Shown: one piece after another, positions 7,874-64,000 of the stretch | How positions within the stretch are numbered: position 1 is the first letter of the stretch | How the letters are laid out: the number at the start of each line of letters is the position of its first letter | From: Pelagomonas calceolata | Taxonomy: Eukaryota | DNA: 64,000 nt | Assembly (NCBI GenBank): GCA_918797485.1 | Contig: CAKKNE010000005.1 | Location: 4,216,001 to 4,280,000 of the forward strand | Direction: 5' to 3' | Made by a program: the position numbers and the translations under genes | Notes under the pieces: model-generated | Databases searched by the model: none | Told to the model about the DNA's origin: nothing | The model's input: only the letters and a program-made list of their open reading frames with translations

Positions 7874-10800
7874 ATGTGGCTCTCGACGACGGGCAGCAGC
7901 GCCCTGGGCCAGCCCTCGACGAACACGGCGCGTTCCGAAGATTCGTTCCGCCACCCGCCGACGCATCGCGACTACCGCCGGATCCGGCGGCCGACGCGCG
8001 CGCTGCCGAGTCGTTTGTTAGGAGGGCGCTCACCGCGCACAAGAACAAAAAATAGAGTCGACTTCGCCGCCCTCAGAGTACCGAAGCACACGATCAAGAA
8101 GCACGCGCCCAGAGAGACCACCAATGTCCCGACGCCGCCCTCGCCGTCCGAGGAGCTCCTCGCGAAGTACAAGTCGAGGCACGAGGAGCGGCCCTGGGCC
8201 CAGCCGCCCACGCCCAAGGCCCGTCCTAAAACACCGGTGGCCCCGACGCCGCCGCCGCCGCCGCCGCCCCCGTCGCCTTATAGCCCGAACACGAAGAAGA
8301 GTTTATTAACAGTAGTGAAGTCGTTGGACGCGGGCCTCGCCGCCTACTTCCACAAGCAGAGGAAGCACATCAAGCTGGGCACGTCGTGGCAGGAATTCTT
8401 CGAGTTAGTTGATGAAGATAGATCTGGTCGATTGACCTTTGATGAGTTAGCATCGTCTGTACTCAATGGAACCCTGAAATGCAAGGACCTGTCGAGGTAC
8501 GATTTGAGGGTCTTCTTCGCCAAGGCCGACAAGGATTCAAGTGGAGAAGTCACGCTGAGGGAATTTACGACTCTCATCTATGAGGTCCAATTAAGTGCGT
8601 GGCCGGACCTCACGGATGACGCCTGCGACAAAGCTGTGGATATCTTGAATCAGGCGGCCTCACATTGGTATCGTGCCGATGGGAATTGGTACAAGATCTT
8701 CAAAGCCTTGGACGTCGAGGACAGCGGTGAGTTGAAATTTGACGACTTCGTTCAGGCTGTTCGGGGTTCCTACCCGCCCGGCGTGGACGTTCCTTCGTCC
8801 AAGTTATCGTCAGCGACGCTGAAGGGCCTCTGGAAGAGATTAGATAACGATAGATCGCAGCACGTCACTTTACAAGAATTTATGGTGTTTTTTCGGAGGT
8901 GCCAAACGGTGTCCGCTTCGGAACTTCGTCGATGGCGTCACGCCGCCGCGACGCCGTCGACGCCGCCGCGAGAGAGGTCCATGCGTCTCGTGAGAGCAGG
9001 TCGCGTCGATGGCGTCGACGCGGACGCGACGCCGCCGCGACGCCGTCGACGCGCCTCACGAGAGATCCCACGCAGGCACGGCCAGGCGCACTCCATGTTC
9101 AAACAAACCGAACACGACAAGCTCCTGCATGGCACGTTGGAGAAGCCTGAACCGCCGCCTTCCGTCGAGTCAAGTGATAGTGAGGTCTGGAGTACACTAA
9201 GACTATTGATGAGAACCCTGAACGCCAAAAACACAAAAAAGAAGAAGTACGACAAGGCGGACGTCTGGCGCGACTGGGCGCGCTTGTTCGATGCCTTGGG
9301 CGGTCCCGACCGCGTGACGTGGGCCACGTTTTCATCTGCTGCCAAAGCACTCACAGATGTAGAAGACCAAGCATTGGCGGCGCTGTGGACCCGGGCCGAC
9401 GATGATAAGTCCGGCGAATTGGGCAGAGGCGAGTTCCAGAGATGCGCTTATACTATACAAGTCCAGAGTTGGCCTGTACTAGAGGGCGAGGAGTTGAAGA
9501 AGGTCGTCGCGTTATTAAATGCGAGTGCAGAAAGATTGCACCGCTGCGGCGGGAACTGGTTCAAGATCTTCCGGCTCTTCGACGACGACGACAGCGGTCC
9601 TTTCCCGCGTCCCGTCCTCCGATGCCGATCGTCCGGCGGCCTTGCGTCGCGTCGATGGCGTCGAGCCTCGACGCCGTCGACGCGTTGATACACACGCAGG
9701 CCTCATGTCCTACGAGGAGCTCAAGAAGGTCCTCAGGACGGGATACCCCGGCCTGGAAGTGACTACGGATCAAGTCACCGACAACCAGATTAGGGGACTG
9801 TGGCGAGGGTTGGATGACGACTTGTCGGGCGAAGTGAGCGTGCAGGAGTTCATGATTTTTTTTAGGAGGCACGGGCGCGAGCACTCGATGTTCAAGCCGA
9901 CGGACCACGATCTAGCTAGTCGCGGGTTGTTGAAAGGGCCAGAGAAAGTGGAGAAAGTACAACTCCCACCGGAGAAATTAAGATCTATCGTCCTGGATCT
10001 AAAAAGGAACCTCAAAAAATATTATGAGAGGCGGGGCATGTCCCCGAAGCTCGACGAGCAGTGGCGCGTCTTCTTCAACACGGTCGACGAGGATCAGAGC
10101 GGTAGACTGGACTTTCCGGAATTAAAAAGGGCCGTGAAAGTCCTACAAGTACAGTTAGACGACGAATCGCTCCGAGGCTTGTTTACCGCCGCCGACGAAG
10201 ATTCGTCGGGAGAGATCACGGTTGACGAGTTCCAGCACTGCGTCTATAAATTGGAATTAGAGACGTGGCCGGATTTGCTGGATAAGGAGGAACTGTTGCA
10301 AAGAGCCATTTCCGTGCTCAATGCACACGCGGAGAAGTGGCACCGCGCCGGCGGGAACTGGTACAAGATCTTCAAAAGAATAGATGCTGATGATAGCAAT
10401 ACGTTGGCCTTTGAGGAATTCCGGCACATGTGTCGAAGTATCTACCCGGGGCTGAACATCGATCGGAAATTGTTGCCGGACGGACTACTGAGGGGTTTAT
10501 GGCGAGGCATCGATGCTGATAGTAGTGGCAATGTCACCGTCCAAGAGTTCATGGTCTTCATGCGGGCGCACGCGGCCCATTTAGATTCGATGGCGGGCTA
10601 TACGCACCGAATGCATGAACTAGCTTCATCCCAAAAAGTGGTGGAAGATACGGTAAACGTGGAGAAGGGTACGGGACTGAGGAAACTCGCGTTACTGCGG
10701 GACGCTTCCATCAAATTTGAGGTGTCAGAAGAACCTCCAGTGGTCGCGGAATGGGACTTCGAGGCTTTGGTGAGGTCCATGGGTTTGTCTGAGTCTGATC

Positions 10801-25500: not shown

Positions 25501-28500
25501 GCGCCCGCGCGCGGCGGCCCGCCGCGCTCGCGGCCATGCGCCGAAACGTCTTTTTGCGCACGCTCAGGCATACGCTCCTGTGCGGAAATAAACCAGCGTT
25601 TTGGGTGCTTGGACTCTCCGCCCGTCGAAGAGTTAGAATTGAGCACTGAAAGCGCGCCAGCCCGTGAGCCATCCGACTAGGCATCCCGCGACCGCGCCGG
25701 CTGCCGACGTGGGTACGCCAAAGTACGGCCGGAGCCCAGCCTCGAGGCCGACCGCTACCGCCGTGGCTATCGCCCACGTCAGCCCTCCCGTAAAGGCGTG
25801 AAGAACGAAATGATGCTGCGCATTTAAACCACACACGCAAACGCCGAAAACGGAGCCGACGACGCATCCCGCGACCGAAAACGGCGCGGACAACGCGGCG
25901 CCTCCAATAAAACGTATGCCGCACTCCAAAGCAGCCAAGGCGAGTGTCGAAGCCGCAACGGCCGATCCGGCCGCCGTGCCCGCCGCCCACCCCCGGGGCG
26001 AATCCCGGCTTCCCTTTTCGGTCAAGCCCACAGCCAAGCCAACGATAAACCCCGAGGACAAAACCGCGGCGAGCACGGCGAAAGGCGTTGGCACGGTGAA
26101 AGTCGTGGCGCCGCCCTTGTCGCCGCGGGCGCGCTTGACGGCGCGCCGGAGCCCGCCGGGCAGCGCCGCGCCGCCGAGGACGAACTTTTTGATCCACACG
26201 AGGTCGTCTCTTATTTGCTGGAGCCTGTGTGGGAATCAAGAGGTGAGTCGAGGTCACTTTGATCTGTCTGCACCGCTGGGAGCCGAAACTGGACCACGGC
26301 CGCGACGAGCCTCCCCGCCGGCACCGGCTCGCCCGGCGCCGACGGCAGCAAGGCCCCGCCAACCAACGTCTCCGCCTCTACGGGCGCCGCCGCGCCCTCG
26401 ACCTGCTCGCCGACGGATATGAACACGTCCTCGAGCGACGTCGCCGTCACGGAAACGTCGACGAGACCCAAGCCGTCGGCCTCGGCCTCCAGCCCCTCGA
26501 AGAGAGCGGCGACGCGCGCCTTGGATGCGTGGATGGTGTACGTCGTCGTGACGTCGCGCGCGGAGTCCTCGAGGAGGGGGGCCTCGGCGCCGTCCGCCCA
26601 GTTCCGCGACGCGGAGAAGCTCGCGCCCCGGGTCGCGTTCAGGAGCGGGCTCTTAAATGATGAGGAAAAGCTTTTGGGTGTCGACCCGAGGAGCGGATTC
26701 GCGGCGTCCGTTTCGGTCGCCCGGCGGAGGTCCTCCTCGAGCTTCGAGGCCGCCGCTAGCTTGGCTTTGGGCATGTGCTGCGCAAAAACCGCTTTAAGTT
26801 GATCGCGCGCCGCGGCGGCCGTCGTCACCGCGATGTGAAGGCCGCCGGTCGACGTGCCGTCCGCTGCGTCGTCGCCCCCGCCGAAGTGCCGCTTCAGGAA
26901 AGATAGAGTGCCGCAGCACGTCACGCTCCCGGCCGCCATGATCGCCACCCGGTCCGCCAACGCTTCGGCCTCCTCCATGTGGTGCGTCGTGAGGAGCACC
27001 GACCGGTCGACGCGGACGTCGCGCAGCAGGGTCCAGACCTCGCGCCGCGCCACGGGGTCCATCCCCGCCGTCGGCTCGTCGAGGACCACGAGTCTGGACC
27101 CGCCGGTCAGCGCCGCGGCCATCATCACTTTGCGCTTCTGGCCGCCCGAGAGCTTGAGCGGAAACCCCTCGGCCATTTCCGTGAGGCGGAAGAGCTCCAG
27201 CAGGCCAGACGCCTCGTTCTCCGCTCTAGATTCCTCGACGCCCTTGAGCCGCGAGTAGAAAATGAGGTGCTCCCGGAGCGTGAGCCGAGGGAATAGCGCG
27301 TCGTGCTGCGGGCAGAAGCCGAGGAGCTGGCGGAGCCTATCCAAACCATCCGCGTCGGCTAAGGGGCCGAGCGTGCGGATCCCGAAGAAACTTGCGCTGC
27401 CGCCGTCGGGCGCCATTGCTCCAGTCATCATCGACATGGTGGTCGTCTTGCCCGCGCCGTTGTGACCCAGCAGGCAGAAAATCTCCGAGTCGCGGATCGC
27501 GAACGTCGCGTCGGATACGGCGACCTTCTTCCCGAAGACCTTCCGGAGGCCTCTTACCTGGACCGGCGCGTCGCTATCTTTATCATTCTCGAACCACTCG
27601 TCGTGGTCCACGAGCGGCGCCTTCTCCACGACCTCGTCCGGCGGCGGCGGTCGCCAGTACGCCTTCCGGAGGCAAAAGAGCAGGTCCTTGCCCTTGCCCC
27701 GCGCCGCCGACGTGGACACCTGGATCACGTACCACAGGACGGCCGCCCACAACACCACGGACACCATCAGCATGCAGTAGACCCCGGCCGTCCACGCGGA
27801 CTCGGGCCGCCAGCCCCGATCCTCAGTCTTCTCGTACCAGAAGGGCCAGACGTCCTCGCACATGAGGTGCTCGTCGGCGCAGGGCGCCGCCGTCAGCGAC
27901 TTCCTCGCCAGATGCTGCTCGAAGGCCTCGCGCCGCGGCCTCGGGGCTTTTTCCCAGCACTCTTTTCTACACTTCTCGCACGGGTAGCGCTCCCCCACAA
28001 AACCGTCGTCGACGAGCCAGCACCGCCAGCCCGCTCGTTTTTTCGTCGGGCTGAACGAGTCCACCAACAAATCGTAGGCGAACTGCGGCAGGAGCGCGCT
28101 TGCGAAGTGCGCGCGCGGCCGCGCCCGCAAGCGCCAGTTCGTTTTGTATCTCCGTTTCCCAACGTTCCAGGTCCGGAGCGGGGCCCAGAGCAAGTAGCAC
28201 CCGTGCAGGGCCGCGTGCAACAGGGGCGGGAGCCCCGCCGCGGCGATCTGCGACCGAAGGAGGCACGTGACCACCACGAAGGTCTGGAGGACGAGCGCCA
28301 GCAGAAAGAGCCAGTGGAGGGCGAAGAGCTCGAGGAACGCGGCGACCTCGAAACTCTTGCCGGCGCGCCGGAAGAGGCCCGGCGCGGCGCCCGCGGCGAT
28401 CGCGACGGCGACGCCGCCGCCGACGGCGACGCCCTCGACCAAAAAGGATGCGAGCCAGTAGGCCGCGTCGGCGCCGCCCGCCGCGCGCGTCGCCTCGCGC

Positions 28501-31500
28501 GTGCCTTGCGCAACGTCCCCCACCAACGCCGAGGCGACGACCTGGACCCACGGCACGAAGAACAACTGGAAGATGACGAGCTCGAAGTCGCCGTGGTTCG
28601 TGTCGAAGGTCGTCCGCTTGCGGGTCTTCGTGACGGCCGTCGGCGCGCTCGTCGCGCTCGTATCGCTTGCAACGGTGCTCCTCGCTAGCCGGTTCTCTTC
28701 CCTGGCGTTGTACAGTAACCACAGGACGCCGACGCCGAGGAGCGGGACGAATACTTGCTTGGCCAGCGCGGCGGTCGTGCGCTTTTTTATAATCCACGCC
28801 TTGCGCGCGAGGAGCGCGGTGCGTTCCGTGAGCGACGGCGGCTCGGCGGCGTGTTTCGGCGCGACGGCGCCGTCGCCCGCGGGCGCCGCCTCCGCGAGCG
28901 AGAAGAGCTGGCCCCTTTGGACGCCCTCCGGCACCTTGACCTTGATGCCATCGGGGCGGGTCACGATCGTGCCCGGCGGGCCCGGCGCCACGACCCAGGG
29001 GGCCGTCTGCTCCGTCCCGTCCTCCGCGGTGTAGACGGCCGCGGGCGGCCGCTTGACCAGGCATCGCCGGAAGGAGTCGCACAAGCAGTAGCAGTAGCGC
29101 GCGAGACAGGACCGCGCGGCCGCCGCTCCTTTCCTGAAGGGCCACGCGACGGCCGCGGCGCCGGCCGAAATTTTTCCCACGCACGGCGAGAGCTTCTCCA
29201 GAATTGGCGCGACGTGGCGTCCGAACCAGGAGCGCCGCTCGCAGAACTTCTCGTAGCGCGCGCGGACCTGCTCGCGGAACACGATGAGCAGCCCGCCGAA
29301 GAACAGGAAGAAAAAGAGCGCCGCGGCGCCCGCCCCTAATTGCCCGCTGAGCGTCACCGCGAGCACTACGGGAACGACCGTGACAAAAAGTAGCGCGGGC
29401 CGGCGCAGACAGAGCTCCAGACTCGCGAAGAACCAGCCGCCGCAGCACCAGAAGAGGCCCCACCGCGTCAGCTTCCCGTCCGCCGCCCAGTTCCGGATTT
29501 TCTGGAGCCGGGCGTAGCCCCAGCACGTCGGCTGCGATATGCAGCAGGCCCAGGCGACGCCCGCCGCCCAGAGACCCACGAGCGCCAGGATCGCCAGGAC
29601 CTGGCGCCAGGTCCACCACGTCGGGTCCGCGTCCCAGGCGATGGTCGCGTCGAAGCCGCAGACGTCCGGGATCGCCTCGCCGCCGCCCGCGTCGGGCCAC
29701 CGCTTCACCGCGTCCTTGAGCTTCTCGAAGAGGACCGGGTCGTGGCCGAGCTCGTCGCACGTCTTCCCGCAGGTCCCGAGGCAGCCGCTGTAGAACTCTC
29801 GCTCCGCGTCCTGCGCGCACGCGTCGGCCGCCGCCGCCGTCGGCCGCGCCTCGAGCCCGCTCCAGCGCCGCGGCGCGCGGGAAGAGGCCCAGAAGTGCGT
29901 CCACGGGTGCTCGACGTACGTCTCCGGTTGCTCATGTTCATGATGCTTTTCGTGATGCCGGTAGTACGGATCGCCCAGGGGTTCCACGCGGAAATCGGCG
30001 CCGTGCCACGGCGTCCGGTAGGGGGCCTCGCCGCTGATACTCGCAGATTCAGGAGCTCTGTCTGCGCAGCCGGCGCAAGTGTTTCTGCAGCCGGCGCAGC
30101 CGGCCTCGTCCCAGCGCTTCTTCTCCCGGAGCTGCGCGTGGAAGAAATCGCCGTCGGCGGTCACGACGCCGCAGGCCCGGATCCGCATCCGCTCGCCCTC
30201 CCACCGATTCTTCGCGGTGTGCGGCCAGGGCCGCCGACCCGGCAGGTCCGTACGCCACCACGACCGGTGGCAGGGGCTTCGGCCGTACCAGCCGAACCAG
30301 TAGTCCAGGAACGACCACCAGCGCCACTTGTGGGAGCGCACGTAGTACAGCGTCTGCGTGTCGGGGTCGCACCGCAGGTCGTCGCAGGCGTACGGCGCGC
30401 GCCGCGGCGAGAACCCGCAGGGCCGGTCGCGGACGTGCTCTATCCCCGCGGCGCGCCCGGTCCAGCCCGCGGTCCCCCCTTTTCCGTACAGCTCCTCGAT
30501 TTTGTGGGCCGGCACCGCGTCGTAGGCCGCGCCGAAGTACTTGAGGAGGACGTCGCACCGCCGCAGCCCGGTCTCGTGGAAGCAGACGGGGAGCGGCGCC
30601 ACGCAACCGGCCGGCGCCGTCGCGTTCGTGCAGCAGGCGCCGACGCCCGGCACGTAGTCCATGCCCGCGAGCCGGTGCCCGTCGGCGCAGTACCGCGCCG
30701 CGGCCGGCGGGCCGAAGGCGCGGAGCGCCACATCGGCTACATTGACGCCTTGGATGGGCGGTGCGACGCGCGAGCAGTCGTCGTTATAGTTCAGCCCAAG
30801 GTCGCCCGGGTCGCGGTCGACGACGTCCTCGAGGGCGGCGATCCGCGGCCCGCCGGGCTTGAACGAGCGGCAGGCGTCCGCGTTGCAGTCGCCGCGCCGC
30901 GTCGGCTTCGTGAACGGATCGGTTTTCCGTATCTCCCAATACTGGCCGCTCATGTCGTAGTGCGACCAGAAAGTAACTATTCTGGCGCGGCACTCGGTCT
31001 CGCGGAACCACTCGCCCTCGTCCCAGCCGTGGCGCGTCCCGTCGTCGACGATGTAGACCTTGCTCGTCGTGTTGGGGCAGTGGTCCGAAGAGTCGTCGCA
31101 GCAAAGGTAATGGAACTCGATGCCACCCGCTGCCCAGTGTGGGACAGGGAACTTCCCCTCGTTCGCGTGGGCCTCCCAGCACACCGCGCCCGCCCGGTCC
31201 ACTTCGGTGGCGGTCAACGCCTCCGCGTCGCCCTTGCAGCAGGTGAAGACGCAGGGCGCGTCCCCCGGCACGACCGTGTAGCCGTCCTCGCACACGGGGA
31301 CCTCGTTCGGCCCCGCGCAGCACTGGCCCCGGGGCGCTCGCGCGATCCCGTCCCAACAATTTTCGGATTGCATGGTCCAGGGCCGCTGCTCCGTGCATTC
31401 CGTGTGGTGGTCGCCGTGTTCGGTCCGTCGCGCCTTGCGCACCGAGCACGCGAGGTCGTCGACGCCGGGCCCGCAGGACCCGTCGTCGACGCCGCGGCGA

Positions 31501-34500
31501 ACGCGCGCGCACTCGCAGTCGGCGCTGAAGTCGCAGCAGTCGCCGCAGTCGTGGTACCCGACCGGGCACCACCCTTCGGGCTGGGACACGTTGTCGTGGT
31601 ACGCGAGGCTGCATATTTCCCAACCGCACACGAATGGGTAAGTACCATAGCGGCTGTCGTCGTTCCATCGTCCTGAGTCGGAGATCACGATGTAGGGCTC
31701 GTCGCCCCCCCCGTTGTTGGGCTCTCCGAATTCCCAGTTCTCGTAATCCCACGCCGTACCGTCCGACCAAGTCCACGTGCCCTCTTGGGCCGCATCGGAG
31801 CCCCCGATCCAGCATCCACCGTGACAAAGCGCCGCAACTGCCGCATTCTCGCTGGAGCTGTGGATTGACGCGAGGTCGTGATAGTGCGCGCGGCAGTACG
31901 CGCGCGCATCGTCAAAGCTCTTCGCTTGATCGACGTGCACGAAGGAGCCGCTGGTTGTAACACGTACGTTCTCCCCCTCGTGTATTGGTGCAAGCGTCGC
32001 CGTCGGCGTTGCTGTTGTCGGCGCCGGAGTCGGCGCGGGCGTCGCCGTCGGTGCTGCCGTTGTCGGCGCAGGAGTGGGCACGGGCTTGGCCCCGTTCCGC
32101 GAGCACAGGTACGACGACCGGCAGTTACGGCACCAGTAGTCAAAGAACTCAAAGCCCTCGTTTTCCGTCCAGCCGTGCGTGCCAAGCCAGCAGCCGGCTT
32201 CGTAGTCGCCGTTTGGCTCGCTGTAGCTCGACAACCGCATGAACCACGGATCCCCGGCAACGCTTTTCCAGCCGACGCCGCCGTACGTGGCCATAGCGTC
32301 GCTGTTCATCGCGTAGCCCTGGCACGAACCGCAGCCTCTCTCGTCGCGGTAAATGCCAACGAGTGGGTCATACCAGCCCGTCGCCTCGACGACGGCGAGC
32401 GCGTGCGCGTAGCTGCGCGGGACCCAGATGTCGAAGCCTGCCGGGCAGCTGTTCTCGTCCGTGTGGCGGCACGTATATTGGCCGTCCTCGACGAGCAGGA
32501 CGTCGTAGATCTCGCCGTCAGCCTCGACGCAGTAGCCCGTATGTCCTTCGTACTTAAATCTACCGGCCGAAGAGCAGTCCGACGGCCATGGCGCCGTCGG
32601 CGCGGAGGTAGGCGCTTCCGACCACGAGCAGATCTCCACAGAGTCCCAGGCGGCCTCGCAACCGTCGCAGTCCGCGCCGACGTAGGCATAGAGCGGTCCG
32701 GACGCGCCAATAGTGTCCGAGAGACTGAGGTCGCCACTGACTCCACTGACTTCCCCACAGCACTCGTACCTCTCCTCCTCGGGGCACCAATAATTCTGCC
32801 CGCCCGAGCGGGGCACGAAGCCCGCTACGCGACACCCGCGGGGCTCGTCCCAATGTTCCGACGCGCAACAGTCATCTCCGTAGTCGGTGCAGATGTCGTT
32901 TCGGCAGTCGATCGTCACCGTCTCCGCCTCGGTAGGGTCCCGAAACGTCACCGTCGACTCGTCGATCGTGATCTCGATGTCGTAGGTCTGCCGCGACGGA
33001 CTATAGGTGGACACGACGCCGGTCTGGCCGTAGATGGCCCGGTAATCGCAGTTCCACACGAACGTGACAAAGCCGGGGCGGTTGGACCACGGCGCGCCCG
33101 AATCAGTGCTTTGGGTGGAGACCTTTATGTAGTGGTCCGAACAATCGTCAGTCTTGTCGAGCGACCCGCTGATCATCAGCGGGGCCTCGATGATTGTATT
33201 CGCCGTGCGAATGTGCGCGCCATTGTTCGCGTTCTTGCAGACCAACACCCCGGCGCCGCTGAGCGCGCACTCGCCGTCGCCGCCGGCGGAAGACGTCCAC
33301 TGCGGGTCGAGGCTGGTCCCTTCGAAGTCGTCCGACACGCAGGTCGTGGTCGTCGGTGCAGCCGGCGGGGTCGGCCTGGGCGAGGGTGCGGGCGTGGGCC
33401 GCGGCTCCGCCAGTCGCGCCGTGCAACTACTATCGCAGGCGCAGTCCGCGTCGCGGTCGCAGCAATCGCCGCACTCGTAGTATCCTTCGGGGCACCGGGG
33501 CGTGCGCCATTCATGCGCGTAGGCGTCGCCACCGAGCCCGTCGCAGGAGCAGTCCGCGTCCTGGTCGCAGCAGTTGGCGCACGTGTAGTAGCCCGCGAGG
33601 CAGCCGTCGAAGTCCGTCGTTGGCTCGACGGCGCCCGGTTCCGTCGCGCAGCACTGGTACACCGCGTCCGGGTCCTCGCACGCCCCGTCGCGCGACACGC
33701 CGCCCGACCGGACGGCGTAGCCCGCGAGGCTGCACCCCGGCCGCTCGGGGAACGGCGCGCAGCAGTCCCACCCGTAGTCGGTGCAGATGTCGCTCCGGCA
33801 CGTCTCGTTCGCCGCCGGGCGGTTTCCGGCGGCGTCCGGGCACCCGAACTTGTACAATTGCCAGTCGTCCAGCGCCGCGATTCTCGCGGCGCAATGATCC
33901 GTGACGCAGCGACACGTGATGTCGGGACTCCAGTAGAAGTACTCGCCGTCGCACCCGGTCCCGGCGAGTGCGCGCACGGCGGCGGCGCACTCCTTGAGGC
34001 CCATGCGGGACCGCGCGCCGTCGTAATAGGACCAGGGATGGTCGATGATCTCGTACGCGCCCTCGCTGATTTGTCCGAGGCGGGCGGTGCGCGCGCAGGC
34101 GCGGTCGAAGACCGGGCCGACGTAGCTGGGCGACGAACAGTTCCCGCTGCCCGCGCACGTGATTATGACTCCCTGCGTGTCGTAGAGGTTCGAGGCCGGG
34201 AGGGCCTCGGGGGCGTGGCGCGCGTCGCACGTGAGGTAGCCCAGGGTCCCGTCGTGGCTATAGACCTCCGGCTCGAGGCGGCCGAGCGGCTCGAACACGC
34301 CGCTGCAATGTTCGTCCTTCGCGCACCTCTCCAGCAAAAACGGGACGAAGTCGTCCATGTACGGATCGTTTGCCGCGAGGGGCGTGCAGCGACGGTCAAA
34401 GGTGTAGGCGTACGGCCAGCGACAAGGAAGCGACAGCTGCCGGCTGCACTTCGAGTTGTCGCACACCGTCGGTGGCTCGGGCAGCTGCGGGATCCACGGC

Positions 34501-34889
34501 GCGTAGTCGCCGCAGCAGTACAAGAAGGAGTGGCCGCAGCTCGCCGCATCTGGGTACCGCACCGGATCATGATGGGTGTGGCAGGGATGCGGGTCGGGCG
34601 CGTGCTGGACGCTGTGCAGACTGCAGAGTGGTCCGTTCGCCCATTTCCCGTACTGAAGCCACTCGTCGCTGCCGTCCGACACGGGCACCCACGTGTCCGA
34701 GCTGTAAACGCCGCCATCGAACGGCGCACCGGTCGGACAGAGCTCTTCGGACGAGCAGAGGCCCTGGCCGCGGGACTCGCACTCCTCGCGCGCGGCGTTC
34801 CACGACACGGATGGCCGTTCACCGGCGGGGCTCGGTCGAGCGGCACTACTGACGAGCGCCGCGGCGACGACGACGCGACCGAGCCGCAT
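22580..34889 (-). CDS. Giant ABCA-family transporter with N-terminal Cys-rich / C-type lectin ectodomain, 3 exons (34889-26284, 26224-25658, 25577-22580), ~4056 aa
   Basis: Signal peptide. CTLD with WIG, EPN and WND. ABCA start LLARKAWIIKKR. NBD1 GHNGAGKTT/LSGGQ/LDEPT and NBD2 GANGAGKTT/LSGGM/LDEPS. Two GC-AG introns give a total of 12171 nt, divisible by 3. Confidence 0.8.
25578..25657 (-). mobile_element. GC-AG intron, 80 nt, introner-derived
   Basis: GCGCGCTT...GCACCC...CGCTGGTTTATTTCCGCACAG (TIR-like end). Restores LTGW|SVCLS. Confidence 0.7.
26225..26283 (-). mobile_element. GC-AG intron, 59 nt, introner-derived
   Basis: GCTCCCAG+CGGTGCAGACAGATCAA...TTGATTCCCACACAG|GCTCCAGC. Near-intact TSD and right TIR matching 14/15. 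Confidence 0.8.
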
Positions 34890-44624: not shown

Positions 44625-46174
44625 ATGCGCGCATTGCTACTGCTCGGCACAGCCTCGGCAGCAGCAGCCCTCTCGAACGCCACGCTACACGCCATCGCCG
44701 CGGACGCTATTTGGCCGGAAGTAGCGACAGGATGCATTTTGAGAGCAGACTTCCTTAACCACGTAGTAGAACTAGAAACGAGCACGGGCGAGACGCGGAC
44801 GGTGCTCTCGAAGGAGAGCCCAATCCCACCGGTCATCCCGGGGCCGCCGCAGCTCTGTGCTCTCAAGAACGACCATGATAATGATGGAAAACAGAGGTCT
44901 GTGTTAACCATAGCTACTGATCTGAAGTATTTGAGACCGTGGTCGCATTTCCTGTGGAACAAGCTGTGCTACTGTAAGCGGGAGGGCCTGGATTTCTTAC
45001 TGTTTCTGGGCAACGTCGACACGGCCCACGCGCCGAATCCGAAATGCCTGTCCGGTAAAGCAGGAAACCACTGGATTAAGGCCGTCGCGATCCACGCTGC
45101 CTTATCTCGCGCGGGCCAGGACGAAGTTTTAGTGCTAGATACGGACGCCATCTTCCGCAGGGAGTCCTTCTCAAGGCACGGCCTGGCGTCCTGTTATTTC
45201 GGGGTCATGGAGGACGCCCAGGCTTCTGTGGCGGCCGGCGCCGAGCATTATCAAGTCTTCGTCAATGCCGCCGTGTTGCTCGTAAGAGAGACTCCGTGGA
45301 CGCGGGCTTTGTTAAGACTGTGGTGGCGCGACCGGTGCGGCGAGAAGGACCAGCTCATTCTGTGGCACTCGCTGCTGACGCTCTGGAATAAAGATTCAAA
45401 TCTGAACTACGACGGCGAATTGTTAGCTTATACATCTAGAGACTACAAGAACAAGAGCTCGACGTCTACATATAAACACGCTAGGCGGGTGGTCACGTTC
45501 TGTGTGGAAATCAACCAGTGCGACGGGTGCACAATTCTTCGCTAAGTCATTTCTCGGCGATGACGCGGCCGTCCTGGCTCGGTCGAGCGGCGAGGAACCG
45601 GCATCGCCACGCCATCGAGCAGGCGTCGCGTCGATGGCGTGGAGGTCCGCGCGACGATTCAGCACGAACGTGCCGTAAAATTTTGATTTCCACACAGGTC
45701 ACGTTCGACTACGCGCGGCAATTGCGGCCCGCGCACTTCGTGAAGTCGCCGGTGGCGCGTTCGTGGCCGGCGTCCTACTTGAGAGTGTTCCACGCCGTCG
45801 CCGCGACTCGGTGACGGCGCGGCGGCCTCGGTGCGTCGCGATTGTCCCTATTCCGCACAGGTGCCCACCCGATCTACCACCTCGCAGCCGACAGTCTATT
45901 AGATTTCCCGGACTTCGCGCTCCTGCCGCAGACGGCGCTGCCGCCTCCGAAACGGTGCCCTGGGCCCGGGCTGCCGTCCTTGCGGAGCAACGCCGCTCGG
46001 CGGAAGAAGGGCGCGCGCGGCGCCGGGCCGGCGTCGTTCCTCGCGCACACGAAGAACCGGCCGGCCTTCGACTGCTGTCCTGCTGGTAACGTCGACGCGG
46101 CCGCGCCGTGCGTCGCCGTGAACCTCGAGCGGTCGACGCACCGCAAGGGCGAGTCGACGCCGCACCGTCGTTAG
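44625..46174 (+). CDS. Glycosyltransferase, GT34 (GMA12/MNN10)-like, 3 exons (44625-45491, 45698-45758, 45861-46174), ~413 aa
   Basis: Signal peptide, NKLCYC, HWIK, VLVLDTDAIF (DxD), VNAAVLLVR.T.W, DQ. Confidence 0.8.
45492..45705 (+). mobile_element. Intact introner: non-autonomous TIR element 45500-45697 with 8-bp TSD, spliced as intron 45492-45697
   Basis: TSD GTCACGTT at 45492-45499 and 45698-45705. Perfect TIRs CTGTGTGGAAATCAA and TTGATTTCCACACAG. Internal hairpin ACGCCATCGA...TCGATGGCGT. Confidence 0.95.
45759..45860 (+). other. GT-AG intron, 102 nt (probably old introner)
   Basis: GTTCGTGG...CCTATTCCGCACAG|GT. The spliced junction VAR|AHPIYHL matches the uninterrupted paralogous copy at 48463. 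Confidence 0.75.
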
Positions 46175-46277
46175 CTCTACTGTAACACTGTTATTTATTT
46201 ATTTTATTTATTTATGTTGACAAGCTTAGAAAGAGACAAGAGCGGGGGAAGGGGAGAAGGAGGCGTCGGAAGCACGT

Positions 46278-47993
46278 CTACTCGAGCTCGTCCAGCGGCT
46301 CGACGCGGGGCCGCTTCGGCGGCGACGGCGAGTTGCTCAGGTCGAGGGGGTCCGCGCTGGAGCCGGAGCCGGCGAGGACGAGCTTCGCCGTCGGCGGCGC
46401 GGCGCCGAAGTAGCGCGAGAGCGGCACGGGCGGCGGCGTGACCTTGGCCTTCCGCTTCCCGCTTCGGGATTTTTTCGGCTTCATCTTGGCGCCGGGCCAC
46501 TCGGTCGCCGGCGCGTCGTACTTGCGGTTCGCCTCGCTCGCGTTGTACCAAATCACGTGGCCCTCTTCCAGCGCCGGCCGCGTCGCCGTGTCGTCGCCGA
46601 GCAGATACGCGTCGACCTCGTTCCAGCGCGCGCGCAGGGCCTTCAAACCCTCGGTGGCGACCATGCCCATGATTTGTAGCGTCGCGACCGGGTCAGAGAC
46701 GTGGGCCTCGCTCTCCAAACACTTCTCCGCGGCCGCGTGCTGGTAGGGGGTGACGAACGGGTCCTTGACGACCGCATCATAATCGCAATTGACCATCTGC
46801 CCCATCATGGGCATGTTGGTCGCGATCGGGCACGGCGCCTTGGTGGACCTGTTCCGGTGCTGGCCCTGCGAGTTCATGCCCAGCGCGACGGACAGGACGG
46901 CGTGGAAGTTGCGGTAGCGCTCGGCGAGCCCGAGGTGGTCCAGCAAATCCTTTTCCGGGAACGAGCCGAAGGACCAAATGCGCTTGTCGTCGTGGCCGGG
47001 CGTCTTCATGAGCTCGCGGACGCGCGGCTCGCCGAAGGGCTTCGCCTGGCCCTCGTTCAGGATCACCTCGACGTCGCCCTTGCCGAGGTCCGGTCGCAGC
47101 CGCCCGACGACGGCGCCGAGCTGGTTCGCCTCATACGCGACCACTAGCCCCTTGGGCTGGTTCTCCGCGCGCATCCGCTTCGTCAGACTCCACTGATCGG
47201 CCCGCTCGATGTCGAAGGACAGTACGTCCTCGCCGCGGATCTTGGCCGCCAGCAGCTCCCTGTAGTGCGCCTTCGCGGCGGCCTGGGGATCGGTGTCCTC
47301 GGGGAGCGGTAAGATCGTCTTGAGGATGTCCGAGTGGCCGAAGACGACCTCGAACAGCCTCTTGACGCGATCGTAGCCCGGGTCCACGCCCTTCATGATC
47401 GTCTTGAGGAGCGGCGGCGGCGTGGACGCATGACTCCGCTCATGGCCCCCCTTGCCCGACCTCCCCGACGCGCCCGACTTGCTCTTACGGACGCCGCCAA
47501 AGACGGGCTGCCCTAGAAACAGCTCCGGGAAGAGGTTGTAGTTGTCGCAGGTCGTCGCCACGCCGTACCTAGATACGCCGTCCCCCTTCCGAGGGTGTGT
47601 TCCCGACACACGTGCACGACAGTCCTCCACCCAGCCCGCGGGATAATCCTCGCCCGTGCGTATTCCGACGCGGTTCTTGCATTCGCACGCGGTATGGCGG
47701 CCCTGCACGCAGTCCGCGGAGGAATGAAGCCCGGCGATTCCGGCGCCTGCGGCTAGTAGAAACTGGATCAACTTCTCCGACGAGCCGCCCGAGGCCTCGT
47801 CACCAAAGATGATGGGTCTGATGGACGCCAACCGAGAACAGCCGGCGTCGATGTCGAGCGTCGACGCCGCGGCGTCGACGACGCGGTAGGATGCGGTGTC
47901 GGCGCCGCGGCTGACGAAGAGCGCCTTCACGCTCGAGCCGAGCGGCGCGGCGGCGCGCCCGCGCGCCCGCGCGGCGAGTCGCCGTAGCAGCAT
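46278..47993 (-). CDS. Hypothetical protein, possible DEDD/DnaQ-like 3'-5' exonuclease with organellar presequence
   Basis: 571-aa intronless ORF. Arg/Ala-rich N-terminus, VLSFDIE (Exo I-like), IWSFGSFPEKDLL (Exo II-like), AHVSDPVATLQI (Exo III-like). Confidence 0.55.
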   Translation of the reverse strand: MLLRRLAARARGRAAAPLGSSVKALFVSRGADTASYRVVDAAASTLDIDAGCSRLASIRPIIFGDEASGGSSEKLIQFLLAAGAGIAGLHSSADCVQGRHTACECKNRVGIRTGEDYPAGWVEDCRARVSGTHPRKGDGVSRYGVATTCDNYNLFPELFLGQPVFGGVRKSKSGASGRSGKGGHERSHASTPPPLLKTIMKGVDPGYDRVKRLFEVVFGHSDILKTILPLPEDTDPQAAAKAHYRELLAAKIRGEDVLSFDIERADQWSLTKRMRAENQPKGLVVAYEANQLGAVVGRLRPDLGKGDVEVILNEGQAKPFGEPRVRELMKTPGHDDKRIWSFGSFPEKDLLDHLGLAERYRNFHAVLSVALGMNSQGQHRNRSTKAPCPIATNMPMMGQMVNCDYDAVVKDPFVTPYQHAAAEKCLESEAHVSDPVATLQIMGMVATEGLKALRARWNEVDAYLLGDDTATRPALEEGHVIWYNASEANRKYDAPATEWPGAKMKPKKSRSGKRKAKVTPPPVPLSRYFGAAPPTAKLVLAGSGSSADPLDLSNSPSPPKRPRVEPLDELE

Positions 47994-48462: not shown

Positions 48463-48780
48463 GTCGCGCGCGCGCACCCGATCTACCACCTCGCGGCCGA
48501 CCGTTTACTAGACTTCCCCGACTTCGCGCTCCTGCCGCAGACGGCGCTGCCTTCTCCGAAACGGTGCCCTGGGCCCGAGCTGCCGTCCTTGCGAAGCAAC
48601 GCCGCGCGGCGGAAGAAGGGCGCGCGCGGCGCCGGGCCGGCGTCGTTCCTCGCGCACACGAAGAACCGGCCGGCCTTCGACTGCTGCCCTGCTGGTAACG
48701 TCGACGCGGGCGCGCCGTGCGTCGCCGTGAACCTCGAGCGGTCGACGCACCGCAAGGGCGAGTCGACGCCGCACCGTTAA
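48463..48780 (+). pseudogene. Orphan duplicate of the GT34 gene's last exon
   Basis: Near-identical to 45861-46174 and open to its own TAA. In-frame TAG at 48424 upstream and no start codon. Confidence 0.75.
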
Positions 48781-48796
48781 CTGTCACATTGTTATT

Positions 48797-61024: not shown

Positions 61025-64000
61025 TTACATGATCGCGCACAGCAGCGACGACCGGTTCGAGAGCGGCATGCCCCAGGCGTTGCGCGGAATCGCCTTGAGG
61101 CGCGCGAGCTCGGCCTCTTCCGCCCTTCTATCCATCTCCTCCTGAGATATAATATTCCCGTCTTCGTCGATGCGTCCTTCCAATTCCGCGAGTTTGCGAT
61201 CGCGCACCGCCTCGAGCGAATCCGCATTCATATCAAACGCCTCCGCAAGTCTTTGGTCGGCCGCGACCTTCTTGTCTCTACTACGGGCCGCGGCTCTCTG
61301 TTCGAGCTTCTTGTCCAATGCTATGGCGATGGCCGAGTCCCACTCGTCCAACGAGATGATCCCGTCCTTGCTCGTATCCAGCTCCCAGAGCATCGGGCCC
61401 AATCTAGCCGGCACGCAGAGGTACTGCAAATGTTCGTTGCCACAAGATATGAGGAAGCGCGACACCCGCTTCTGGTTGATGCCCGCCATGAGCTCCTCCT
61501 TGTCGAGCGTCCACGAGTCGTCGGCGTCGATCATCTCAAAGACCTCTCTGGCTTTCGTCTGGAAGTCGATGGCGAACTCGTTGTCCGCGTCGCGGTCCTT
61601 CTGGCGCTCGTCGAGCAGCTTCGTGAGCGAGCTACCGACCGCTTCCGTCCACTCGTCTTTACTGATGCTCCCGTCGTCGTCGGTATCCATCTCTGACAGG
61701 GCCTTGTCGAGGAGCTCCGGATTCAATAGGTCTTGCAGCTCCGGCAGGGGGCATTTTACCACAAACTCGATCACGTCCTCGTCCTCGCCGCAGGCTTTGA
61801 CGAGCTCCTCCTTCGACAGCGTCCCATTCATGTCTTCATCAATAAGGTCGTAGACGATGACCGCCATGTCGAGAAATTCGTCTATGAACCTGTGCGCAAA
61901 TCAACCAGTGAGTCGGGTGCTCGCGTCGATGGCGTCAAGGTCGACGCGAAGATTCAGCACGAAGGCGCCGTGGCATTTTGATTTATGCACAGACCGAGAC
62001 TCATCGTCGTTGCCGCGAGCGAGCGCGTGCCGCTCCAAGATAGCCTCCAAGGATCTATCACTCAGAGCCTTCCACTCGTCTCGGTCCAGTTCGCCGTCTG
62101 AATTGGTATCACATTCCTTCATCGCGGCTTGCACGCGTGGAGGCACCAAAAATTCGGAAAGGACTGGGTTCCGGCAAGTCTTGATGAACCTCAAAACATC
62201 GGGCTTGCCCTTGAGCGCGAGCATGATTTCGGGAAGGCTGAGCGTCCCTGAGCCATCTTCATCTATCAGGTCGAAGATCTTCGCGCAGTTCGCGCGGAAG
62301 TCCTTGGCCAGCAGGTCGGCCTGCGGGGAAACAACACCAGTGAGCCGCGCGGGTCTCGAGACGAGAATCGACCGCCACGCCATCGAGCAGACGGCGCGTC
62401 GATGGCGTACACGCTCGGCAACAGTAGAAGACCGCCCGTCGAGGTCGAACGAAAGGACCTTTGAGACGCCGCGACCGCGACCTGCTCCTGCGCGTCCCTT
62501 TCCCTCTTAGCCTTCAGCCGCCGCTTAATCACGGAATCGTTCGTGTCCATGGTCCTGCTCTTGGCCGCCAACCGCGAGGCGAGCGACTCCTTCTGGACCA
62601 CCACTGGCGCGTCCTTGACCCTCTTGCGCCGGGGCGCGCCCTTGGGCTGCGGCGGCTTCAAATCCTCGGGAGTGAGTTCGAGCTCGCCCCGCCGGTAGGC
62701 CGCGAGCATGTCACGTAACGCGCGGTCGCGGACGGGTACAATTTTGTCGAGGCCCGGCACGCCCGTCGAGTTGATGTTCCGCGAGTGGTTGAACCATGCA
62801 TAAAACTCCGGGAACGACACCGCGCCGGACCGATCGACATCGACCTGCCGGAACGCATCCCGCAACTCATCGCGAGTAGGAGGCTCGTCGACGCCCAACA
62901 ATAACCCGTTCTTCATCATCGCGATGAACTCCTGCCGGTCGATCTCTCCACTATTATCAATATCATACATCGAGAACGCGCACTGCAGCACGTCCTTCAA
63001 TTTGTCGTCGCGCGTCGGGAGCTGGGCCGCGGCCTTCATCCGCTCCGACTCCCTATTGTTAGCGGCCTTCTCGAACTCTTTCAGTTCATTGGGATACTTG
63101 TCCTTCAAAACGCGCGAGAGCCAGGCGTCGCGCGCTTGCTGGACCGCACTACTGAGTTCTTGGCGAGCCAGTGCTTGTTTCTGAATCACTTCGCTCCTCT
63201 TGATATTGCCGATCTCTCCACTAAGCCACTCCCTTGCTTCGGTCTGGGCTATTGACGTGTGAATCGCTCGCTCGCCCAAGGCTGATAAATATTTATGTCC
63301 AAGCTCCATCAGTACCCTAGCGCGTTGCAATCGCTCCACTCTGTTCATCAAATGCTCCCTAGCTGCTACTTGACGACGACAGTGCGCCAAGCAACACGCG
63401 CCCACCGCGTTCAGCATATCCACGGCGTTCTCCGTCCTAAAGACCTTCTCGATGGCGCCCCTACCGAGCTTATCCAATGATATGAACATCTTGTCGCGCT
63501 TCTTGTTGGCTATCCTACCCTTCTCGGCCTTGGTGATCAAAATCTTCATGTCTCTTCTCCTTAATATCTGTTGCCGGTGCACGCGCACGGCTAACGTACG
63601 CAATTCGAGTGCCGTGATCGCCCGGGCCTTCTCCGCGGCATGGTACTGCGCCGACACCTCGCGAATGCGTATTAATTCAATCTGCATGATCACCCACGTC
63701 GCGCGCATGTTCTCTCCCCTTTCACTGAGGAAGGTGTGCGCCGCGAGTAGATCCGCGTTCAAGGACAGACACTTCTTGCCGCGCCACGTCAAATATTCAA
63801 AGGCCGCTTTGCGTCTAAAATGCAGCTCCCAGGCCTTGGCCGGGGCGGCCTTGCCTTGGATGAGGGCCGTCTTCTGCTCTCGGGCCGCCCTTGCCCTAAT
63901 CATGAGGTAGCGGTGCGCGTCGTTCCGGTTCTCTCGATGTCTTCTCGCTCGTCCGACGCGCGCCTTGCACCACTGGTAGGCCTTCTGCTTCTTCGTCCAG
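61025..64000 (-). CDS. Large EF-hand protein, 5'-partial (exons >64000-62482, 62320-62001, 61889-61025)
   Basis: Multiple DxDxxGxxxxxE loops. The frame is open to the window end. Splicing gives AQEQ|ADLLAK and GNDDE|FIDEFL. C-terminal CAIM is CaaX-like. Confidence 0.85.
61890..62000 (-). mobile_element. GT-AG intron, 111 nt: internally deleted introner in reverse orientation to its host gene
   Basis: + strand CTGTGCGCAAATCAACCAGTG...TCGATGGCGT...GATTCAGCACGAA...TTTTGATTTATGCACAG is homologous to 45500-45697. The donor lies exactly 8 nt outside the TIR. Confidence 0.9.
62321..62481 (-). mobile_element. GT-AG intron, 161 nt, introner-derived
   Basis: + strand CTGCGGGGAAACAACACCAGTGAG...CGCCACGCCATCGAGCAGACGGCGCGTCGATGGCGT is homologous to the intact element. 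Confidence 0.85.

What the first reader, a model, noticed from the sequence alone, without database searches (positions are those of the whole stretch)
45492..45705. Pristine intron-generating DNA transposon caught in a coding exon
Seen: GTG|GTCACGTT-[CTGTGTGGAAATCAA...TTGATTTCCACACAG]|GTCACGTT. A 198-bp element with perfect 15-bp TIRs is flanked by a perfect 8-bp TSD. Splicing from the GT in the first TSD copy to the AG ending the TIR removes the element plus one TSD and restores the original frame exactly. Established: this matches the mechanism described for Aureococcus introners, and 8-bp TSDs are typical of hAT-like transposases. Inference: a recent insertion, so the family may still be mobile. 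The 206-nt size is about one nucleosome repeat. No transposase is present in this window.
Basis: partly seen in the sequence, partly recalled or inferred. Interest (0 to 1): 0.85.

Follow-up and report, generated by a model that had tools for sequence, protein, structure and literature searches.

The report
Transposon-made intron in a marine alga
A 198-base repeat with the hallmarks of a DNA transposon sits inside a gene of a marine alga and is cleanly spliced out of the messenger RNA; it is a real but middle-aged copy of a large intron-making family of a known kind, likely already catalogued in Pelagomonas.

Summary
A 198-bp element (45500-45697) has perfect 15-bp TIRs and an 8-bp TSD. RNA reads skip exactly 206 nt, GT..AG (41 and 27 reads), and 45 of 45 homologs covering the site are colinear with the spliced protein. 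The family is large: 121+ metagenome loci; 43 of 97 two-ended copies have a perfect 8-bp TSD, and all 43 offer GT/GC at one end (background 32%). Donor orientation matches the coding strand in 38 of 38 clear cases. A raw ORF on a syntenic 642-kb contig reads through the site, so it is likely empty in a close relative. 'Pristine' and 'still mobile' are not supported: this copy has 8 substitutions and a 5-bp deletion against the 203-bp family majority, and no two sampled copies exceed 96% identity. No transposase was found. The host is a pelagophyte, likely Pelagomonas calceolata, where introners of this build are already listed (956 elements; a 340-copy, 202-bp 'co-opt 5', carry 3'' family). 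Known mechanism, likely a known family. Extra: three different interiors share the same ends and the same ~203-bp length.

The parts
45492..45499 (+). Left TSD copy; its first two bases GT are the 5' splice site
45500..45514 (+). Left TIR, 15 nt
45500..45697 (+). Non-autonomous TIR element, 198 bp (family full length 203 bp; 5-bp deletion after 45530; 8 substitutions against the majority)
45607..45642 (.). Internal palindrome (12-nt perfect arms) shared by interior types A and B
45683..45697 (+). Right TIR; ends in CAG = 3' splice site; its TTGAT is a candidate branch site (inferred from a recalled consensus, untested)
45698..45705 (+). Right TSD copy, kept as the start of exon 2
45492..45697 (+). 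Intron 1, 206 nt, GT..AG, phase 0 (between V287+2 codons RRV|VTF)
   Evidence: 41 reads X22, 27 reads X23, contigs in X5 and X11
44625..45491 (+). Host gene exon 1 (414-aa protein with N-terminal hydrophobic leader and DTD motif; weak, sub-threshold Glyco_transf_34 match in a homolog, E 0.0056)
45698..45758 (+). Host gene exon 2 (61 nt)
45759..45860 (+). Intron 2, 102 nt, GT..AG, partly retained; not shown to belong to the family
45861..46174 (+). Host gene exon 3 to stop codon

Best explanation
The element is a spliced-out intron built from a multi-copy repeat with terminal inverted repeats and an 8-bp target-site duplication, likely a non-autonomous cut-and-paste DNA transposon (an introner) moved by a transposase encoded elsewhere. 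Shown: the spliceosome-type cut runs from the GT at the start of the left duplication to the AG that ends the TIR, removing the element plus one duplication, so the protein is unchanged. Shown across copies: both ends read CAG outward, so the element supplies an acceptor in either orientation, and surviving exonic copies sit where the 8-bp target begins with GT or GC on the coding strand. Inferred: insertion is by an 8-bp staggered cut; the GT/GC bias is mostly selection on survivors; this copy dates from a past burst and has since decayed by about 4%; the mobiliser may be hAT-like.
For: Splice joint 45490>45697, 206 nt, GT..AG, in stranded polyA reads (41 reads/28 starts; 27 reads/13 starts; one sample) and in contigs of two other studies. 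45 of 45 homologs that cover the site (of 54 examined) have no gap there. Donor orientation equals best coding strand in 38 of 38 clear cases, 45 of 49 with the weak ones. Right-end AG intact in 32 of 32 copies that use it as acceptor, 25 of 30 that do not (p = 0.022). Summed DNA depth in the element is 1,100-3,800 times the flank (not a true copy number). P0012, a frameshifted raw ORF on a 641,834-bp contig that also encodes a 98% match to a window neighbour, reads straight across the site.
Against: No transposase or autonomous partner was found (window scan; the five loci with 621 nt of sequence and no right end showed decayed short copies or unrelated sequence on reading; no hit in viral contigs). 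The empty site is inferred from proteins; its DNA was not seen. Transposition itself was not observed. Metagenome copies come from unknown strains or sister species, so their divergence mixes age with host divergence. 35 of 97 two-ended copies have two or more TSD mismatches.
Confidence: 0.93

Rival explanations
1. The same introner, but this copy is a very recent insertion of a family that is still active.
For: Perfect TIRs and TSD; site likely empty in relatives whose protein is 85-95% identical; many full-length copies.
Against: At 5 positions 94-99.7% of laid DNA depth from the same organism carries another base; 4 of these are shared by 0 of 15 family copies, plus a 5-bp deletion. Best pair among 105 pairs is 96.0%, mean 91.3%. 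Both DNA runs laid carry the insertion. The sample is small and not from one genome, so young copies elsewhere are not excluded.
Confidence: 0.12
2. The intron spread by reverse splicing of its RNA or another RNA route, and the TIR and TSD are by-products.
For: The intron RNA folds far better than shuffles (z -4.1); RNA-based models are proposed for fungal introners (PMC9860276, passages).
Against: The shared unit is the TIR-to-TIR element, not the intron: the first 8 nt of each intron are locus-specific and duplicate the exon, and copies make introns in both orientations (27 and 19 of 46). The fold is what TIRs and an internal palindrome give anyway.
Confidence: 0.03
3. An old ordinary intron into which a repeat fell, or a chance repeat arrangement.
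For: None specific.
Against: Element plus one TSD accounts for every base of the intron; homologs on genomic-size contigs are uninterrupted.
Confidence: 0.01

Closest known systems
Pelagomonas calceolata introners (Guerin et al. 2022, PMC9481584; Gozashti et al. 2025, PMC12130899, Dataset file 8, fam2, also fam1/fam3/fam39)
   Same: Intron length peak about 210 bp (203+8 = 211 here); GT and GC donors, AG acceptor, conserved TIRs, 956 putative elements (passages and Supplementary Note 3). fam2: 340 introns, TIR DNA, classed hAT, 202 bp, gt 281 / gc 42, 'co-opt 5' carry 3'' (table rows).
   Different: Sequence identity could not be tested: the logos are figures and the TIR words were absent from the supplement text searched (some files are cut). 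The fam2 row gives no TSD length; the rows seen say nothing on two-orientation use or shared ends. The window's species is inferred, not shown.
Aureococcus anophagefferens introner elements (Huff, Zilberman, Roy 2016)
   Same: One splice site carried, the other taken from the TSD; introns in either orientation (as summarised in bioRxiv 10.1101/2020.10.14.339549 and PMC10228655, passages).
   Different: Different genus (a window protein is only 60% identical to its Aureococcus homolog). The paper itself was not held, so TIR sequences and nucleosome data were not compared.
Aureococcus sp. TARA family 4 introner (Gozashti et al. 2022, PMC9860276, Fig. 2F) and Polarella glacialis classes 6, 8, 10
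   Same: 8-bp TSD; the Polarella classes use a GHN6 target and both orientations.
   Different: The TARA family keeps 12 nt (4 from the element, 8 from the TSD). The same option exists here (GT at 45504 would add four residues) but no such joint was listed in the RNA.
hAT superfamily MITEs (hATv subgroup of haptophytes)
   Same: 8-bp TSD and short TIRs; fam2 had a Repbase hit to hATv-2N1_EHux.
   Different: No transposase in hand; the one hATv family described in the passage read has a 7-bp TSD and 26-bp TIRs (PMC10138859); ends here start CT, not the CA/TA recalled for classic hATs (recalled, no call).

Membership tests
Introner (intron-generating transposon) | Spliced from mRNA at element-defined boundaries | tested here: met
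Introner (intron-generating transposon) | Many similar copies at unrelated genic sites | tested here: met
   (46 of 58 tested loci clearly coding across the removed element)
Introner (intron-generating transposon) | Absent at the orthologous site in relatives | tested here: inconclusive
   Strong protein-level sign (P0012, P0002, P0031, P0032 on 53-642 kb contigs); DNA not seen
Aureococcus-type TIR introner | TIRs plus fixed-length locus-specific TSD | tested here: met
   8 bp only, 43 different TSDs
Aureococcus-type TIR introner | Donor co-opted from TSD, acceptor carried by TIR, either orientation | tested here: met
Aureococcus-type TIR introner | Insertion into nucleosome linkers | not testable with these tools
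   needs MNase or methylation maps
P. calceolata fam2 (Gozashti 2025) | Length about 202 bp, GT>GC donors, co-opt 5' carry 3' | tested here: met
P. calceolata fam2 (Gozashti 2025) | Sequence identity to the family consensus | not testable with these tools
   no consensus in the supplement text searched
hAT superfamily | 8-bp TSD and short TIRs | tested here: met
   not unique to hAT (recalled)
hAT superfamily | Autonomous partner with hAT transposase (PF05699) between the same ends | not testable with these tools
   no genome held; none in window
hAT superfamily | Classic hAT terminal motif (C/T)A | tested here: not met
   ends start CT; the motif is recalled, a paper search found no source

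The most novel reading that the evidence does not exclude
One undiscovered transposase with non-classic ends moves at least three unrelated passengers (interior types A, B, C) that share the same 21-nt left end and have all converged on 203 bp, i.e. a 211-nt intron, which would mean a hard length gauge (nucleosome-sized or set by the transpososome). With an age series from intact to 62-bp relics and empty sites in wild relatives, this family would let one measure intron gain, shrinkage and fixation in ocean populations.
Probability: 0.3. Interest if true: 0.55.

Novelty: already known. Interest (0 to 1): 0.3.

Why it matters
It is a clean, RNA-confirmed example of how a DNA transposon creates an intron without changing the protein, in an abundant ocean alga. 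The mechanism is published for Aureococcus and such elements are listed for Pelagomonas, so a specialist would not be surprised. What could add value is family-level: the strict 8-bp/GT-GC/two-orientation rule shown here, selection on the acceptor end, shared ends and length across unrelated interiors, and likely empty sites in wild relatives that make the population genetics of intron gain testable.

Tried and rejected
No whole genome is held and the metagenome records could not be opened as genomes, so no genome-wide count or transposase search was done. Huff et al. 2016 is not held. Viral contigs: 0 hits with two patterns. First read-laying did not show the splice joint because other copies filled the table (164 rows hidden); the stricter did. 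Empty-site search among the 121 loci and the window found only one shared insertion (L007 = L080), no empty site. A search for proteins reading into the element returned 3 proteins, none with read-through, and the window's read-through ORF is not in the collection. Intron 2 as a decayed family member: beat 300 of 300 base shuffles but 19 of 627 window segments score as high, so not claimed. A TIR-end motif scan of the window was at chance level (13 found, 12 expected). My script search for intron 2 printed nothing (acceptor set one base off); RNA gave it. The 571-aa neighbour ORF as transposase: no Pfam or PDB hit, weak exonuclease leads, model unusable at pLDDT 35 and not searched. Earlier scan findings: none. 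The atlas did not answer for the host protein.

Full report
Observation. The sequence is as described: TSD at 45492-45499 and 45698-45705, perfect 15-nt TIRs at 45500-45514 and 45683-45697, a 198-bp element, and a 206-nt GT..AG span from 45492 to 45697. A scan of the window for TIR+TSD pairs of 80-1200 bp found nothing else with a TIR of 12 nt or more. Removing the span gives ...ARRV|VTFDYAR..., but the frame stops about 110 nt further on, so a second intron is needed.

Splicing is real. Stranded polyA reads from the same organism skip 206 nt with GT..AG ends: 41 reads from 28 starts in X22 and 27 from 13 starts in X23, which are one sample; contigs of runs X5 and X11, from two other studies and only guessed to be RNA, show the same joint. 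About 6 in 100 of each raw run was read. Depth on the RNA strand in the less repetitive parts of the intron is 5-8 against 40-56 in exon 1 (X22), an upper bound on retention because other copies add to it. The same call gives intron 2 at 45759-45860 (26 and 22 reads), with more retention. An alternative donor at 45504 would keep 12 nt in frame, the pattern reported for an Aureococcus sp. family (PMC9860276, passages); no such joint was listed. The three exons give a 414-aa protein; of 54 homologs examined, 45 cover the site and all 45 are gap-free there, down to Aureoumbra at 44% identity. The only family hint is a sub-threshold Glyco_transf_34 match.

The family. In two DNA runs of the same organism summed contig depth inside the element is 1,100-3,800 times that of the flank; the tool warns this is no copy number, so I read it only as hundreds to thousands. 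Of 122 matches, 97 have a right TIR within 620 nt (at most 4 mismatches); 25 do not. A perfect 8-bp TSD flanks 43 of 97 and 62 have at most one mismatch; at lengths 4-7 and 9-12 only 0-2 of 97 are perfect. All 43 TSDs differ, and all 43 start with GT or GC on one strand or the other (20 sense, 17 antisense, 6 both; background 32%). Perfect TSDs are commoner in long copies (23 of 35 above 180 bp, 8 of 29 at 120 bp or less), as expected of an age series with internal deletion.

Mechanism across copies. For 58 of 97 loci with near-perfect TSD and enough flank I removed the element plus one TSD and scored six frames with a codon model trained on window genes. 46 were clearly coding without a stop; in the 38 of these with a donor on one strand only, the coding strand matched in 38. 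Of the 12 weak loci left out, 11 were single-strand cases and 4 disagreed, so 45 of 49 overall. Both orientations are used (27 and 19 of 46); phases 0/1/2 are 24/4/18. The right-end AG is intact in 32 of 32 copies where it is the acceptor and 25 of 30 where it is not (Fisher p = 0.022; 62 of 97 classifiable), which points to selection for splicing. That the element moves by cut-and-paste is inferred from TIRs and the fixed TSD; that TTGAT in the TIR is the branch site is a guess from a recalled consensus.

Age. Against the majority of 15 near-full-length copies of its own interior type, this copy has 8 substitutions and a 5-bp deletion; the others have 5-19 (median 9). Four substitutions are shared by none of the 15. 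The best of 105 pairs is 96.0% identical, the mean 91.3%. In the organism's own DNA 94-99.7% of laid depth has the other base at five of these positions. At 2.5-4.5% divergence 46 end positions stay intact 12-31% of the time. So the copy is typical, not pristine, and the true unit is 203 bp (211-nt intron). Limits: metagenome copies come from mixed hosts, and young copies could exist unsampled.

Empty site. P0012 is a raw ORF that switches frame against the window and still runs across 45500 to 45698 without the element; it lies on a 641,834-bp contig that also encodes a 98% match to the window's Nckap1-like gene. Uninterrupted 414-416-aa homologs also lie on contigs of 53 and 92 kb. No protein reading into the element was found. 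This makes a lineage-specific gain likely, but the DNA was not seen and some gene calls could be spliced. Both DNA runs laid carry the insertion; polymorphism within the species is open.

Shared ends. The 97 copies fall into interiors A (66), B (22, short ones weakly assigned), C (4) and 5 unassigned. A and C interiors are no more alike than shuffles (16 against a maximum of 24), A and B barely more (37 against 33), yet full-length members of all three are 203 bp (one C is 207). This suggests one mobiliser and a length constraint; it is inference.

Transposase. None by Pfam among the window's long ORFs; none evident beyond unpaired ends, read by eye for the 19 with 220 nt or more; no viral contig holds the end pattern. 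No genome was available to search.

What is known. The host is a pelagophyte other than Aureococcus (best named homolog 60%) or Aureoumbra; window proteins lie on a 5.3-Mb contig, GC is about 57-72% per 2 kb. Pelagomonas calceolata is the likely species, by inference. For it, Guerin et al. 2022 (PMC9481584; passages and Supplementary Note 3 seen, the logo figure not) report an intron peak near 210 bp and 956 putative introners with GT/GC donors, AG and TIRs. Gozashti et al. 2025 (PMC12130899; passages and table rows seen) list 11 families, among them fam2: 340 introns, TIR DNA, hAT, 202 bp, gt 281, gc 42, co-opt 5' carry 3'. No consensus text was found to compare (cut files and figures may hold it). 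The Aureococcus mechanism I know only through other papers' passages. Searches for other accounts.

Verdict. Real, spliced, high-copy introner of the Aureococcus type, most likely an already catalogued Pelagomonas family; works like a hAT-type MITE, but hAT membership is not shown; not especially young. Interest 0.3.

Noticed in passing
window 45863-46195 and 48472-48796 (+): The host gene's last exon occurs twice, 93% identical, 2,609 bp apart. The downstream copy keeps the uninterrupted V-A-R-A-H-P site of intron 2 and is closer to relatives in 20 of 21 homologs, one tie, but RNA uses the upstream copy. An 8-mer with one mismatch (45752-45759, 48463-48470) brackets the 2.7-kb segment between. 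Likely an insertion or duplication that the gene survived by gaining intron 2 and a new last exon; unexplained.
   Followed up: partly
window 46278-47993 (-): 571-aa ORF inside that segment: no Pfam or PDB hit, 12 relatives among 1.84 billion, a Cys-rich repeat and an FDIE motif shared with one homolog, weak atlas leads (0.84) to 3'-5' exonucleases; fold unusable. A database protein P0286 joins it to 167 other N-terminal residues.
   Followed up: partly
window 61890-62000 (-): Older, shortened (103-bp) antisense copy of the family with a decayed TSD; removing a 111-nt GT..AG span opens an EF-hand frame. Splicing not checked in RNA.
   Followed up: partly
window 62321-62420, 25578-25610, 26225-26260, 8940-9075, 9620-9700: Further relics: TIR-like acceptor ends on the minus strand in an EF-hand gene and two ABC transporter genes, and palindrome-core matches in an EF-hand gene.
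   Followed up: no
L009, L013, L084, L100 (type C); L008, L069, L112 (type B): Unrelated or rearranged interiors with the same ends and about 203-bp length; type B looks like repeats of the type A palindrome.
   Followed up: partly
L037: Two family copies 594 bp apart in the same frame-compatible gene region, each with its own perfect TSD.
   Followed up: no
window 45759-45860 (+): Intron 2 is retained in a sizeable share of polyA reads (depth 19-23 against about 50 in X22, 7-8 against about 35 in X23) and holds an in-frame stop.
   Followed up: no
window 26211-34889 (-): 2,892-aa ORF joining a C-type lectin domain and an ABC transporter ATPase domain, next to a second ABC transporter gene.
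   Followed up: no
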